Shown: piece after piece, positions 45,001-54,000 of the stretch
Layout: the number at the start of each line of letters is the position of its first letter
How positions within the stretch are numbered: position 1 is the first letter of the stretch
Source: Styela clava
Lineage: Eukaryota
Assembly: GCF_964204865.1 (NCBI RefSeq)
Contig: NC_135255.1
Coordinates: forward strand, 11,904,001 to 11,968,000
Direction: 5' to 3'
DNA length: 64,000 nt
Program-made: the position numbers

Positions 45001-48000
45001 CAAGCCTTTCCTTGGAACGAAATTGGTCAGTCACGAATCCGCGCGTTGGAGAGTTTTTCTCAAAACCCTCAACATTTCTAAGGTGAACAGCATGTTCCAA
45101 GGAAAAAAATGAAAGTGTTTTTGATTACGTCCAGTAAGCTTAAATTTAATGCGATCTTGTCCTAAAAACAACACCATAACACGACGACCCACAAAGTTCC
45201 ATTTCGTGTCCAAACAAATACTGAAAACAGCCTCAACTTAAAGAATAGACTACATATCGATAGTACGCCAGTCTAGGCTCTGCCGAATGAAAATCAACGA
45301 ATATTTTTTCCAGACTGCAAGAACAACAAAAATTTCTGGTAAGGGTGCATTATATCAGTTTTGCACGATGGGCTGTTAATTTAGAAGTTGGGCGTCTTTG
45401 AGGATGATTAATCGATTTAGACATCAGACAAGGGTACTTTATTTAGGCTGAAACATCAAAGCAATCCTTAAAAAAATATTAAAAAGGTAGTGGGTATGGT
45501 AGAAACAAATATAAGTCTATAGGCCTCGATGATTTTAAAACTCGGTAGAACTCCATGTGAATTGGGAAGATAGTTGTCAGCAACAACGTTTTCGTCGAAT
45601 GGCGTATCCCGTGGATTTTTAACGCCTCATACGACGACATATATTATAACTTGCTACGAGCGATAGCGAAAAACAGTTCGCTAATTACCCCGTATACATT
45701 ACATGTTTCGTATCTAGCACTCCAAGTAATGGTATTGTGATTCGATATGAAATAGCCACCTATACCTTCGATACCTGAGGTATCGAAAAAAACAAAAAAT
45801 GAGATGTTCACGTCATGTTTATAACGAAAGAGAGCAATGTTCAAGTATATGGGCACTATGGTAGTGACATCATCGCCAACATAACTCAAGTAATTTTAGA
45901 TTTCCGACGTCATTTTTCGCGACGCTTCACTAAAATACTGGCAATACAGACATAATTGTTTGTATGGCATCATAGATGTTGTCTCCTATAACTGAGCCAA
46001 TCCTTTATATTGCGCGTAGCACAGTGTAGCACAGCACATATCGATAAAATGCAACAAGAACGTATCTAATTCAAATTGATACTTCAAAACTGACCAGCTG
46101 TACAGTGTACATAACATGAAGAACGAGCACTTTCGACATTTGGAATCAATCGTCAATAATGGCTTCAAATAACCATTGGAAGTGACAACGTTGCGGAGTA
46201 TGCCTCGAGGAATGATCAGGAAAATCGAAAAAAATAAGAGTAAAGTTTTGAAACTACTCGGTAATCAGGCCCGCGTGTCAGTTAAAACAAACCTAAAAGT
46301 AGCAGCAAGTACCATAGGCATAGCCGAGATTCAATTTTAAATATGTGTGTCCAAACGACAAGACATCGTTTACATCAGTGGTCGGCATACTTTGTGTACT
46401 AGCGAGCCAAATATACACCTTTCCGGTAGCGTGCGGGTCGTATTAATTTCCGCCTACGGACAATCGTCCATAAAACTTCAAATTATGGCGCACTCGCAAC
46501 TTCTAGCCTTGTGTTAAACGCCTTTAACAATGAGGCATGTATGAGGCCGTTTCTCATATTATATCAAACGCGATACATTGTTTCTTATTTACTCATCATC
46601 AGTGTAAAGGATGATGTTGTTTCTATGTGTAGGTCAGAGCGTTAAAATCAACTGGCAACTTTGTCCGGGTGTCGTTAATGAGCCATCTAACACTAAATGA
46701 AGACCCTGTAGTAGAATTTATTTATTTGAATATATTGTTGTTCCATGATTGTGTGTTTCTGAGATCATTTTCCATCCGATTGTTCCGTTGCAATATTTGC
46801 TGCTGTATTCAGCATTAAGGTGTCGCTGATTGAATGACTCTCAATGATCTTGTGAGTCATTCAATTAATGATCTGACAAGGATAGTATGCTTATTCTTAT
46901 AGTGTGAATATCAAGTTTGGATAAATCTGCTCACAGCAATATGTGCTTCCGACCATGTACATTACACGTTTTAAATTTTCATACAGATAAGCAGTCGCAT
47001 CCCAGGGTCTTGGCTCGATTTTGTTATTTGCAATGACACGTTCCGTAATGACGTTCAATATTAAATTTCTCAATAACTGCGATACTGGATGGCATATCAA
47101 GTAAACAGGTTTTGAAAGACACAGGAAAGATATATTTTCCCGTCCAGGCACTTTGGAATGTTCTACCCTCATCGCCATGCAACAAAATTAGCGCCGTACA
47201 GCAGTACATGACATTGATCTGTGTGTGGACAATTATGAATTTAGGATCAATTTTTGTAATATGTATTAAAAGTCGTTCGCGGGCGCAAAATAATTAGTTC
47301 GTGGGCCGCAGTTTGTCGACCATTGATTTACATGCTTTTCTCAATTTGTCATATAAACACTACCTCCTGCAAAAAAGCATACCACCTTCCTAGCTCAATT
47401 TGTGTAAAAACAACGGGTCCTACCTTGATTAAATACATTGCCAAGTATTCAGCTCTCAAATGAGGTACGTCTTCAGCTTTTGAACGCGATATCTTGCTGG
47501 CGAGTTGTGGTGTAACAAGGACGTGTGTAAGAAGTTGTTTGGTTTCAACTTTTTTTGTTTTCGACTGAGAGTCAGAAGTATACCTCGAAGTTATGTCGAT
47601 AAACGTTCCACCACCAGCTTCAACGATTCTTGTTTCAGAGATGGGTAAAAAAAATAAAAATAAAAGGCTGATAAAAAAAACTACCTTTTAGCGGTATAGA
47701 GGAAGAGAGAGCGGATTGCAATAAATCGTAAAATATCTAATGGCTTACCTTGCATAAGCATGATAGAAATTACTGTCCATAACAAGACCAACGGTCCAGC
47801 CAAGAAATGGACGATCCATGTGTTTCACGTGAATTTTTTCTCTCCATCGTCTCGGAGCCTAATCATGAGAATGATAAATTTGTAATTTGAATAGAGCAGA
47901 TACAAACTTATTACACGCATTTTAATTCGGATTGAATCGTGGAGACATTAGGATAGCTTTTATAAATCTCGGAATTCCAGTAGTAACTCGTAACTTTCTT

Positions 48001-51000: not shown

Positions 51001-54000
51001 ATAATACAAACACTACACCAGGGCTGTGCAACCTTTGCTAAAAGCGGGCCAAATACAAATAACCTGGTGAAACCACGAGCGTCAACTTTATCAAACATAC
51101 CTAGGCCTTCTAGTAGTTGCAAACACAAAAATCATGATTATTCATCTTATGACATGTGTTGTTCGCTTCACACAAACTAGCTGTAAGGGCATTGTAGCGT
51201 CATAGGCACAGAAGGATTGGAATTATTCACATGTACCAGATTAAACTAAATCACAAACTCATTTTGCGGCCGCACACCATTCAAAATTTGCACTTCTGCG
51301 CAAACTGCAAAATTTTTCCTTGTGGGCTGCATTTGGCCTGGGGGCTGCAGGTTGCACACCCCCACTCTACACACAGACACAGTAGTACATAAACATATAT
51401 TTTCTGCAAGACCACATAAAATAATGTTGAAAAAATCTATCACGCACCTGTGAATTTGCAGGATCGGATAGATAAATTGCCTTTAAATTTTTAATAATAT
51501 TTATCATATATTTCTTTTCTGCTTCAGCATCAAATCCAGAAAGCATAATTCGTGGAACCATGTTGGCATTTTCATCCATTTATCTAGCGTTAAAATACAC
51601 CACTTCGATCTTACCACTAAAACTTTGGAAATAAAAAATACCATGAAAACTTTGTATGAAATACTAACTTCACTAAGACATGGGACACCACTGCTTTATT
51701 AAGATAAGATATTTATATTTGTGCCAAGAAGAAAGACGCTGTTAACATTCATTCATATAATTTTTAATGGTTACAGTCGGGCTTGGATCGAGGAGGAAGG
51801 CTGTAGAAATTATGAGAGAAATCTATATATATTATAGAAATTGACTCCATTCCACTGTCAACTGTCAATTTAACATTGACTACATAAAATATCCAAGTAT
51901 AATATAATGCATTCTGACCAAACCTTTGGTGTTGTGAGTTGTCTGATATACTTATAAATGCAGGTGGGCAAGATAAACCGCAGTTCATTTTGTCTCGTCG
52001 GCAAAAAAGCCTTGCTAAATGACAAGACACTTGAGATATTTTTATTGTGATCTTTTTATAGTGTGGTTTCAATACAGAATCTGCGAGCCATTAATGGTAT
52101 TGCAATGGGTGTGTTATCTGGTCATGGAAATTTTTCTAATCAGTTCGGGAACTACTGCACTAGACCATGTCTTCATATTGTATGAAAGTTATCTTTGTAA
52201 GTGAGCTATTTCTTCAATTTAAAATAGATATAAAATCCAATAATAATTGAGCCTTGCATCATAACACAGTTATAATGTTTTTCAGATATTATGCACCTAT
52301 CAATAGAATTTTCTATCTATCCAAAAATCTTCCAGTTTTTTTTGCTATTATGTAAACCGACCTTCAGAATTATGAGAATTGACATAGCTGCATAGTCAGC
52401 ATGGTGCATGTTTTCAACATAAGGTCAGGCATTACAGCATTATGTTATAATAATATTTTTTTATCTTTCATGTATTGCCTTTAAATAATTATCAAGTAGA
52501 TATGAAGAAACTTACTTTGTGCCTAAGTCAGTAAGTTGCATAAAACCTCCATAACAATATGAATTCTTAACATGCTAATAACTGTGCTTCATTAGTCACA
52601 ATAACATAACAGCAAAGTCAAGTAGAGTATTCTAATCACCTTATTAGGGGATTTCCCCATGTTGGCGGCAACGCCGTGGTGCGTTGAGTCATATATCCGA
52701 ACCAAATAGGATAAAATGCTCTTATTTATTCCGGGGGAGAAACCCGATAAAACAACTTAATCATATCCAAATTTAGGGTTGCCAACCGTCCTTCCTTTAG
52801 GTCTTAGGAGGACAGCCATGTAATTAGGCTCTCCTAACTATATGAATATTTTGTTTTCTATTTAGATGGTGTAATTCCACATAAGAGATGTAGACGGTAT
52901 AATTTAGCTCCTGTACCTATTATTGTGATTTGTCACCAGTCGGGCTATATTGGATTCCACCATTCGTTTACATTTGCTGTGGTATTCTATGCTGTGCCCT
53001 GTGTGCATACAGAAATTTTGTTTTTGGTTAAGGTTTAGCTGTCAAGTTAACGTAATGACCAACATGTGAATGGTTTGTGTTGTTAATTGAAAGTTTTTCA
53101 TAGTTTGTGAACAGTTTCCCCCGTGTCCCAAAAATTTTCTCTCCTCAAGTCTTTCAACTAGCAGTCTGATGAAAGATGATTACCGATCAATATTTCCTAA
53201 ATCAATACCTTCTTCTCAAATGTGTAGGGTAGTTTCAAGTTTGTAGGACCAATTTGAAAAAAAAATAATAATAATAATAATAATAAATAAATAATAATAA
53301 TAAAACACAGGAATACAATAGGTTCCCTGCTGACAAACAGCGGGAGAGAGAGAGAGAGAGAGAGATTTATTTCGTCAACCAGAAAAAAACAGTCATAATA
53401 ATAAATAAATAGTGGCTATAAAAAAGTACGCTTTTTTCGGTGTAGACTGGAAGGAGCGATACGACCATGCGGTCATCGAAGTCAGCCCCCTCCAAGTTTA
53501 CGCTGATAAATTCACAGTAAAATAAGATTATTAGAAATGGTTGAAGTTCACGACACAAAATTTGAAAAAACAAACAAAAAAATGAAGTAAATAAAAGTAA
53601 TTAATTTTTTTTCCGTGAAATCAATTTTTAAATGATGAGATTTGAAAGTGAGGAGTAAGACCCACAAATTAAAAAAAACAATTTTGGCTATTGGACTACT
53701 ATACTCAATGTAGAATTGGACGCAAGGAGCCAGCCTTACATGTACGAATGAATTTCAGGAGATAAACAACATGGTACTCATGTAAAACAATTGGTTCAAG
53801 AGAGGAATCAACCTAAGCCTAATTCCTAAAGCCTAATTCCTTGTCTATAATCCATGACTGTGAATGGGAAAGCCTTGCTTGAACTAATAATACCCTATAT
53901 ATATTTTCATAACTCATTCTCCAACCTCAGTATCATACTGCCTTAATTAATTTTAATCATAGTTACCGGTATTTTTACTCATTGATAGTATTTGATATAA

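What the first reader, a model, noticed from the sequence alone, without database searches (positions are those of the whole stretch)
47424..51579. Hidden SLF1-like gene that appears to be BRCT-only
Seen: five small exons rebuild an intact tandem BRCT pair starting at the initiator Met; two of them are absent from the ORF track. Established: vertebrate SLF1 is about 1000 aa, binds RAD18 through its BRCTs and reads H4K20me0 through C-terminal ankyrin repeats to recruit SLF2-SMC5/6. I found no ankyrin (TPLH-type) exons downstream on this strand, and the nearest acceptor ends the protein at about 220 aa. Inference: a stand-alone phosphopeptide adaptor, a split SLF1, or a truncated paralog, implying altered SMC5/6 recruitment.
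Basis: partly seen in the sequence, partly recalled or inferred. Interest (0 to 1): 0.66.

Follow-up and report, generated by a model that had tools for sequence, protein, structure and literature searches.

The report
Short gene encoding a BRCT pair
An intact five-exon gene here encodes a phosphopeptide-reading BRCT pair of the TopBP1/SLF1 type at the very start of its protein, and nothing recognisable follows it, so it may be a short stand-alone reader, but only transcript data can settle that.

Summary
On the minus strand, five exons (51579-51448, 50712-50634, 50447-50326, 47858-47749, 47628-47424) have GT-AG introns and consistent phases, giving 216 codons from an ATG preceded by an in-frame TAA.

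Searched exon by exon, exons 2 and 3 match only tandem-BRCT proteins in the PDB. They align to adjacent positions of human SLF1 (41-62, 65-95) and of TOPBP1 BRCT7/8. Exon 5 weakly matches Pfam BRCT_TopB1_SLF1. Exons 1 and 4 match nothing alone. The joined model was not searched.

Sequence does not separate SLF1 from TOPBP1 BRCT7/8; only the N-terminal position is SLF1-like.

None of 449 minus-strand ORFs of at least 30 aa across the 47 kb downstream matches an ankyrin family. The frame closes at TGA 47351-47349, giving 240 aa unspliced or 221 aa after a candidate 57-nt intron.

A stand-alone product is the best reading (about 0.5). A longer protein with an unrecognisable Nse5-like tail cannot be excluded. 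Homologue searches, phylogeny, dN/dS and expression could not be checked.

The parts
51580..51582 (-). In-frame TAA directly upstream of the start codon
   Evidence: Read. With no AG before the first beta-strand codons, exon 1 cannot be an internal coding exon.
51448..51579 (-). Exon 1, 132 nt, 44 codons. ATG at 51579; a second ATG at codon 7 sits in a GCCAACATGG context. Carries a hydrophobic strand followed by Ser14-Gly15. Donor CAG|GTGCGT.
   Evidence: No Pfam or PDB hit on its own. The role of Ser-Gly is read by analogy with SLF1 Thr13-Gly14 (PMC10598736).
50634..50712 (-). Exon 2, 79 nt, 26 codons plus 1 base. Encodes beta3 and alpha2 of the first BRCT, including the pocket lysine.
   Evidence: TOPBP1 BRCT7/8 E=0.035; SLF1 8ir2_A residues 41-62 E=0.048. 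Its Lys19 aligns with SLF1 Lys56, Lys13 with Arg50 and Arg16 with Lys53. Pfam BRCT E=0.027.
50326..50447 (-). Exon 3, 122 nt, 2 bases plus 40 codons. Encodes beta4 and alpha3 of the first BRCT and the start of the linker.
   Evidence: SLF1 8ir2_A residues 65-95 E=0.018; TOPBP1 3al2_A residues 68-95 E=0.32. The match runs on from exon 2 with exactly the two residues that the junction supplies.
47749..47858 (-). Exon 4, 110 nt, 36 codons plus 2 bases. Encodes the linker and the first strand and helix of the second BRCT.
   Evidence: Splice sites and phase. No family hit on its own. The assignment is by position and reading only.
47424..47628 (-). Exon 5, 205 nt, 1 base plus 68 codons. Encodes the rest of the second BRCT. 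Ends in AAG|GTAGGA.
   Evidence: Pfam BRCT_TopB1_SLF1 PF23294, E=0.073, profile positions 37-77 of 90. PDB: one chance hit only.
47367..47423 (-). 57 nt that are either a very short in-frame intron (GT...TTTTTTGCAG) or 19 further codons if left unspliced
   Evidence: It would be the shortest intron of the gene; the others are 120 to 2467 nt.
47349..47366 (-). Last five codons and the TGA stop (47351-47349). Both readings, 221 aa and 240 aa, end here.
46721..46726 (-). First AATAAA downstream of the stop, about 620 nt away; a possible poly(A) signal
   Evidence: It is the only AATAAA or ATTAAA between 47351 and 45800 on this strand. Not evidence of use.

Best explanation
This is an intact protein-coding gene of a non-human animal genome. 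Its product begins directly with a tandem BRCT pair of the class shared by TOPBP1 BRCT7/8 and SLF1.

The frame closes 24 codons after the second BRCT, or 5 codons after it if a 57-nt intron is removed. The most likely product is therefore a free-standing protein of 221-240 aa.

Inferred mechanism: it reads a phosphoserine or phosphothreonine peptide. The phosphate sits in the first-BRCT pocket (Ser-Gly after strand 1, Lys in helix 2), and a following hydrophobic residue sits in the cleft between the two BRCTs, as in other tandem BRCTs. With a net charge of about +7 it may also bind DNA, as the SLF1 pair does.

Shown: the exon structure, the N-terminal position, the family class of the first BRCT, the aligned pocket lysine, and the absence of ankyrin coding in the window.

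Inferred: the fold of the second BRCT, the ligand type, the short product and the function.
For: - Exon structure and phases.
- In-frame TAA before the ATG and no usable acceptor.
- Exons 2 and 3 hit only tandem-BRCT proteins. They run on from one another in both SLF1 (41-62, then 65-95) and TOPBP1 3al2 (45-65, then 68-95).
- Exon 5 matches PF23294.
- Lys19 of exon 2 aligns with SLF1 Lys56. Thr13, Gly14 and Lys56 form the phosphate pocket (PMC10598736 passages; PMC11551741 passages).
- The stop is shared by the spliced and unspliced readings.
- 0 of 449 minus-strand ORFs of at least 30 aa from 26 to 47687 match an ankyrin family at E<=0.1. The best hit to any family, apart from the exon-5 ORF itself, is E=3.6e-4.
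- No ankyrin-like repeat in six frames.
- A crude splice-plus-codon screen of the 36 kb downstream gave 22 candidate exons on the minus strand and 15 on the plus-strand control. None scored at least 8 bits.
- Coding-like segments are no more frequent on the minus strand (5 versus 3 at 10 bits or more).
Against: - No single exon reaches a curated Pfam cut-off or a conventional E-value. The best are 0.018 and 0.027.
- Exons 1 and 4 have no hit alone.
- The joined model was not searched or folded.
- Exon 5 ends in a good donor (AAG|GTAGGA) exactly at the domain end, as expected if the gene goes on.
- 36 kb with no assigned gene lies downstream. That is enough room for some 800 more codons at this gene's exon density.
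- Minus-strand ORFs of at least 50 aa are mildly in excess there (131 versus 111 +/- 8.4 simulated). Bins on the control strand fluctuate as much.
- My exon screen is weak. Exon 5 itself fails its acceptor threshold, and exon 2 scores 0.3 bits.
- Nse5-like domains escape sequence searches (bioRxiv 10.1101/2024.01.07.573240).
- No poly(A) signal lies within 620 nt of the stop.
- Expression and selective constraint are untested.
Confidence: 0.5

Rival explanations
1. The five exons are the head of a longer SLF1-type (Nse5-like) gene. The exon-5 donor splices to exons further downstream, in the 36-kb unassigned stretch or beyond. These would encode a divergent linker and alpha-solenoid that binds an SLF2/Nse6-like partner. 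This lineage would lack the ankyrin domain.
For: - Good donor at the exact end of the second BRCT.
- 36 kb without any recognised gene on either strand.
- Mild excess of long minus-strand ORFs.
- Nse5 orthologues are highly divergent, and only some carry BRCT or ankyrin domains (bioRxiv 10.1101/2024.01.07.573240, passages).
- The N-terminal tandem BRCT is the SLF1 layout (PMC11551741, Introduction passage).
Against: - No candidate exon with both good splice sites and a coding-like score.
- No strand excess of coding-like segments.
- The bin next to the gene (41.1-47.1 kb) has no ORF excess: 20 versus 19.4.
- A strong acceptor 57 nt downstream leads straight to a stop.
Confidence: 0.3
2. It is a truncated partial duplicate of a longer gene (TOPBP1's C-terminal pair or a full SLF1). 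It keeps its introns but is not functional, or is on its way to decay.
For: - The BRCT pair ends abruptly.
- The tail read through the donor is hydrophobic and looks like intron.
- Repeat elements fill the introns. Directly downstream (about 46.9-47.3 kb) lies a stretch that I recall as resembling a hAT transposase, though Pfam found nothing there.
Against: - 216 codons are open.
- All splice sites are canonical.
- The pocket lysine is kept.
- It has its own start codon with an upstream in-frame stop.
Confidence: 0.12
3. The exons are the 3' end of the TOPBP1 gene itself, whose BRCT7/8 pair is C-terminal. This would explain why the frame ends soon after.
For: - Exon 2 is closer to TOPBP1 BRCT7 (13 of 21 identical) than to SLF1 (10 of 22).
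- BRCT7,8 is the C-terminal module of TOPBP1 (PMC6175577, passage).
Against: - In-frame TAA directly before the ATG, and no acceptor that keeps the frame.
- Among the 113 minus-strand ORFs (79 upstream of the gene, 34 within the locus) only one matches BRCT. I infer that it is the exon-2 ORF, one of the 34.
- A complete WDR60 gene sits 5.4 kb upstream on the same strand.
Confidence: 0.02

Closest known systems
SLF1 (SMC5-SMC6 complex localization factor 1), tandem BRCT, PDB 8ir2/8ir4
   Same: - The tandem BRCT sits at the very N-terminus.
- Exons 2 and 3 align to residues 41-62 and 65-95.
- The pocket Lys56 is kept; Arg50 and Lys53 are replaced by Lys and Arg.
- A Ser-Gly stands where SLF1 has Thr13-Gly14 (by reading).
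   Different: - No ankyrin domain in 47 kb downstream.
- No detectable Nse5-like part.
- The frame ends after about 220-240 aa, against a 121-kDa protein (PMC11551741).
- Identity is only about 40-45% in the two exons that align.
[quoted passage not shown]
TOPBP1 BRCT7/8, PDB 3al2, 7cmz
   Same: - Same Pfam class (PF23294).
- Exon 2 is 13 of 21 identical and exon 3 is 12 of 28 identical, in register.
- In TOPBP1 the protein also ends soon after this pair.
- It binds phosphopeptides such as that of FANCJ (PMC6175577, passage).
   Different: - In TOPBP1 the pair is C-terminal, behind seven other BRCTs.
- Here it follows the initiator Met, and no other BRCT-coding ORF lies upstream.
Rtt107 / Brc1 of yeasts
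   Same: This is a comparison by function only. They are separate BRCT proteins that bring SMC5/6 to lesions by binding Nse6 (PMC10598736, Discussion). That is what a free-standing BRCT reader could do.
   Different: - They are multi-BRCT scaffolds of another BRCT class.
- No sequence match was seen here beyond a sub-threshold RTT107_BRCT_5 hit (E=0.14).

Membership tests
TopBP1/SLF1-class tandem BRCT (Pfam PF23294 and PF00533) | First BRCT with the family's beta3-alpha2-beta4-alpha3 sequence | tested here: met
   Exons 2 and 3 hit only SLF1, TOPBP1 BRCT7/8 and PAXIP1. They are in register. E-values are 0.018-0.048 per exon, below formal cut-offs.
TopBP1/SLF1-class tandem BRCT (Pfam PF23294 and PF00533) | Second BRCT packed after a short linker | tested here: inconclusive
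   Exon 5 matches PF23294 at E=0.073, 13.5 bits against a cut-off of 27. Exon 4 has no hit. The joined model was not searched. The structure job failed.
TopBP1/SLF1-class tandem BRCT (Pfam PF23294 and PF00533) | Phosphate pocket: Ser/Thr-Gly after strand 1 and Lys in helix 2 | tested here: met
   The Lys aligns with SLF1 Lys56. Ser14-Gly15 is by reading only, because exon 1 has no tool alignment.
SLF1 (Nse5-like recruiter of SMC5/6) | Tandem BRCT at the N-terminus | tested here: met
   ATG with an in-frame TAA upstream and no usable acceptor
SLF1 (Nse5-like recruiter of SMC5/6) | Ankyrin repeat domain that reads H4K20me0 | tested here: not met
   0 of 449 downstream minus-strand ORFs and 0 of 115 plus-strand ORFs match an ankyrin family. 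Motif scans of all six frames found none. This holds for the window only.
SLF1 (Nse5-like recruiter of SMC5/6) | Nse5-like alpha-solenoid that binds SLF2 | not testable with these tools
   There is no Pfam model for it. The domain is too divergent for sequence search (bioRxiv 10.1101/2024.01.07.573240).
SLF1 (Nse5-like recruiter of SMC5/6) | Binding of phosphorylated RAD18 | not testable with these tools
   No genome of this organism is at hand. [quoted passage not shown]
TOPBP1 | BRCT7/8 at the C-terminus of a multi-BRCT scaffold | tested here: not met
   The pair is N-terminal. There is no further BRCT match among the 79 upstream minus-strand ORFs.

The most novel reading that the evidence does not exclude
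The gene makes a free-standing TopBP1/SLF1-type tandem BRCT. It would be the unfused state of the SMC5/6 targeting system: the phospho-reader is one polypeptide and the Nse5-like recruiter another, as with Rtt107/Brc1 and Nse5/6 in yeasts. The vertebrate SLF1 layout would then have arisen by fusing such a reader (itself derived from the TOPBP1 C-terminal pair) to an Nse5-like protein.
Probability: 0.15. Interest if true: 0.6.

Novelty: new member of a known kind. Interest (0 to 1): 0.3.

Why it matters
If the product really is a 221-240-aa stand-alone BRCT pair, it bears on how BRCT-guided recruitment of SMC5/6 was assembled in animals. It would also offer a minimal natural reader to test for ligands.

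If the gene simply continues into unrecognised exons, this is an annotation point. It would then be an SLF1-type gene without an ankyrin domain, which fits the report that only some Nse5 orthologues carry BRCT or ankyrin domains.

Either way, the present evidence supports only 'a tandem-BRCT gene of a known class'.

Tried and rejected
I used stop-to-stop ORFs instead.
- The protein Atlas could not take a new sequence.
- Structure prediction of exon 5 alone was not accepted at first. It was accepted later, failed and was then not accepted again. There is no model, so no fold search.
- A codon score trained on the window's own genes was dominated by the charged WDR60 N-terminus. An amino-acid composition score and a retrained codon score separated the known exons only weakly.
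- The excess of long minus-strand ORFs was not robust. Bins on the control strand swing from z=-3.1 to +2.4.
- ORFs of 35.1-41.1 kb and the 149-aa ORF 41537-41983 were read by eye. None was convincing.
- Rfam, tRNA and tandem-repeat scans gave nothing relevant.
- Self-comparison of the window found few repeats.
- Nakamura 2019 (PMC6420097) is not held.
- The TOPBP1 3'-end reading was rejected (see rivals).
- Literature: nothing was listed on free-standing SLF1-type BRCT pairs or invertebrate SLF1.
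Full report
**What was looked at.** The window has no N and about 35% G+C. I do not take the contig for human. The BRCT exons are only about 40-45% identical to the human SLF1 and TOPBP1 chains where they align. The neighbouring WDR60 gene is one uninterrupted ORF, and MITE-like elements fill the introns. The joined protein was not assembled, searched or folded.

**The observation.** The gene lies on the minus strand.

| Exon | Coordinates | Length |
|---|---|---|
| 1 | 51579-51448 | 132 nt |
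| 2 | 50712-50634 | 79 nt |
| 3 | 50447-50326 | 122 nt |
| 4 | 47858-47749 | 110 nt |
| 5 | 47628-47424 | 205 nt |

- The end phases are 0, 1, 0, 2 and 0, and the total is 648 nt or 216 codons.
- The four introns (735, 186, 2467 and 120 nt) are all GT-AG with pyrimidine-rich acceptors.
- At this strand's stop frequency (0.0566 per codon), 216 open codons have a chance of about 3e-6, though the path was chosen after the fact.
- The ATG at 51579 is preceded by an in-frame TAA. There is no AG between that TAA and the codons of the first beta strand, and the one AG just upstream puts the TAA or another stop in every phase. Exon 1 is therefore a first coding exon (read).
- A second ATG at codon 7 has the better context, GCCAACATGG.

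**What the exons encode.** No exon alone reaches a formal threshold, as expected for pieces of 26-68 residues.

- Exon 3: 6 of 6 PDB sequences at E<=10 are SLF1 (8ir2_A residues 65-95, E=0.018) or TOPBP1 BRCT7/8 constructs (E=0.32-0.49).
- Exon 2: 7 of 7 are TOPBP1 BRCT7/8 (E=0.035), SLF1 (residues 41-62, E=0.048) or PAXIP1 (E=1.9).
- The two exons are exactly in register. Exon 2 aligns up to residue 62. Its last whole codon and the split codon supply two residues, and exon 3 starts at residue 65. The same holds in TOPBP1 3al2 (45-65, then 68-95). I take this as strong support for both the family and the splice junction.
- Pfam gives BRCT for exon 2 (E=0.027) and BRCT_TopB1_SLF1 (PF23294, profile positions 37-77 of 90, E=0.073) for exon 5. 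It also gives a Rad4 hit that I regard as chance.
- Exon 1 has no hit. Exon 4 has only chance hits to ryanodine receptors. Exon 5 has one chance hit in the PDB.
- The second BRCT thus rests on one weak profile match, on the right spacing from the first BRCT, and on reading of the sequence.

**SLF1 or TOPBP1?** Sequence does not tell them apart.

| Exon | Identity to TOPBP1 | Identity to SLF1 | Bits, TOPBP1 vs SLF1 |
|---|---|---|---|
| 2 | 13 of 21 | 10 of 22 | 17.4 vs 17.0 |
| 3 | 12 of 28 | 12 of 31 | 14.5 vs 18.4 |

What is SLF1-like is the layout, a tandem BRCT at the very N-terminus (PMC11551741, Introduction passage). In TOPBP1 the BRCT7,8 module is C-terminal (PMC6175577, passage).

The locus is not the 3' end of TOPBP1. 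The reasons are the stop before the ATG, the lack of an acceptor, and a complete WDR60 orthologue 5.4 kb upstream on the same strand (E=4e-88). In addition, among the 113 minus-strand ORFs scanned (79 upstream of the gene, 34 within the locus), only one matches BRCT. I infer that it is the exon-2 ORF, one of the 34, but the tool does not say which member matched.

**The pocket.** In SLF1, Thr13, Gly14 and Lys56 bind the phosphate of RAD18 pS442, and Arg50 contacts pS444 (PMC10598736, passages). T13A and K56A abolish phosphopeptide stabilisation (PMC11551741, passages). In one search, Lys19 of exon 2 aligns with Lys56, Lys13 with Arg50 and Arg16 with Lys53. Exon 1 has Ser14-Gly15 after a hydrophobic strand, but no tool alignment backs that equivalence. 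The 214 whole codons carry 30 Lys+Arg against 23 Asp+Glu. The SLF1 pair binds DNA through its basic surface (PMC11551741, passages).

**The end of the gene.** Exon 5 ends in AAG|GTAGGA exactly where the second BRCT ends. 57 nt further on there is a strong acceptor (TTTTTTGCAG|G), followed by five codons and a TGA at 47351-47349. The 57 nt are in frame and open. Both the spliced reading (221 aa) and the unspliced reading (240 aa) therefore end at the same stop. A 57-nt intron would be less than half the shortest of the gene's other introns. The first AATAAA lies about 620 nt downstream.

**Is there more downstream?** I scanned every minus-strand stop-to-stop ORF of at least 30 aa from 26 to 47687, 449 in all (150 + 150 + 149).

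- None matches an ankyrin family at E<=0.1. Apart from the exon-5 ORF itself, the best hit to any family is E=3.6e-4, which is unremarkable for 449 queries.
- 115 plus-strand ORFs of at least 45 aa between 11.1 and 47.4 kb gave nothing either.
- A strict ankyrin regex found nothing in six frames. A weighted 17-position score, built from a consensus I recalled, peaked at 12.0 of a possible 23.5, inside the WDR60 ORF.
- The 36 kb between the serpin gene (5769-11072, plus strand) and this gene thus hold nothing recognisable.
- Weaker tests point the same way. Coding-like segments of 10 bits or more number 5 on the minus strand and 3 on the plus strand. Three of the five minus-strand segments lie in or against repeats.
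- A splice-plus-codon screen found 22 candidate exons on the minus strand and 15 on the plus strand. None reached 8 bits.
- These screens are crude. Under the same scoring, exon 5 fails the acceptor threshold and exon 2 scores 0.3 bits.
- Long minus-strand ORFs are mildly in excess (at least 50 aa: 131 versus 111 +/- 8.4). Bins on the control strand vary as much, and the bin next to the gene shows no excess.

**Why the question stays open.** Nse5-type proteins are reported to be so divergent that only sensitive profile and structure comparisons link them. Only some orthologues carry ankyrin or BRCT domains (bioRxiv 10.1101/2024.01.07.573240, passages). An alpha-solenoid spread over small exons would therefore be invisible to everything I could run.

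- The homologue searches, the representative search, the metagenome and viral collections and the Atlas were closed or unavailable. No eukaryotic genome collection was on hand.
- Reciprocal searches, phylogeny against TOPBP1 BRCT7/8, dN/dS, the search for SLF2, RAD18 and TOPBP1 orthologues, and any check of expression all stayed undone.
Figure S1B of PMC10598736 (SLF1 orthologue alignment) and the ortholog tables of the bioRxiv paper may bear on whether invertebrate SLF1-type proteins have BRCT or ankyrin parts.

**Verdict.** The gene and its tandem-BRCT class are real (about 0.9).

| Reading | Probability |
|---|---|
| Product is a free-standing reader of 221-240 aa | about 0.5 |
| Longer gene with unrecognised exons | about 0.3 |
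| Truncated, decaying duplicate | about 0.12 |

RAD18 binding should not be assumed. [quoted passage not shown] No paper in the held library was listed that describes a free-standing SLF1-type BRCT pair or invertebrate SLF1.

Noticed in passing
window 57012-60206, minus strand: An orthologue of WDR60 / dynein-2 intermediate chain 1 is encoded by one uninterrupted 1065-aa ORF. Its C-terminal 600 aa match 6rlb_C at E=4e-88. It is intronless while its neighbours have many introns, so it may be a retrocopy or a lineage trait.
   Followed up: partly
window 5769-11072, plus strand: A multi-exon serpin gene. Three ORFs match Pfam Serpin at E=3.4e-39, 2.7e-7 and 2.2e-6. Its 3' end faces the 3' end of the BRCT gene across 36 kb.
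   Followed up: partly
window 48818-50207 and 51019-51362: Two MITE-like elements inside introns 3 and 1 of the BRCT gene share terminal inverted repeats of the form CAGGGSTSKGCAACC. There are 3 matches in the window against 0 expected.
   Followed up: partly
window 11100-47400, both strands: 36 kb with no Pfam-recognisable ORF on either strand. This is far more than the 5.4 kb that separates the BRCT gene from WDR60.
   Followed up: partly
window 46900-47300, minus strand: Two overlapping ORFs just downstream of the stop look to me like a decayed hAT-type transposase fragment. This is a recalled resemblance only. Pfam found no family at E<=0.1.
   Followed up: partly
window 41830-41935, minus strand: An ATG is followed by 36 open codons and a consensus donor GTAAGT, inside the longest downstream ORF (41537-41983, 149 aa). 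It has no family match and remains unexplained.
   Followed up: no
window 13293-13393 and 49690-49886; 21385-21648, 30468-30612 and 55178-55437: Short dispersed repeats are shared between intron 3, the downstream region and the WDR60-BRCT intergenic region.
   Followed up: no
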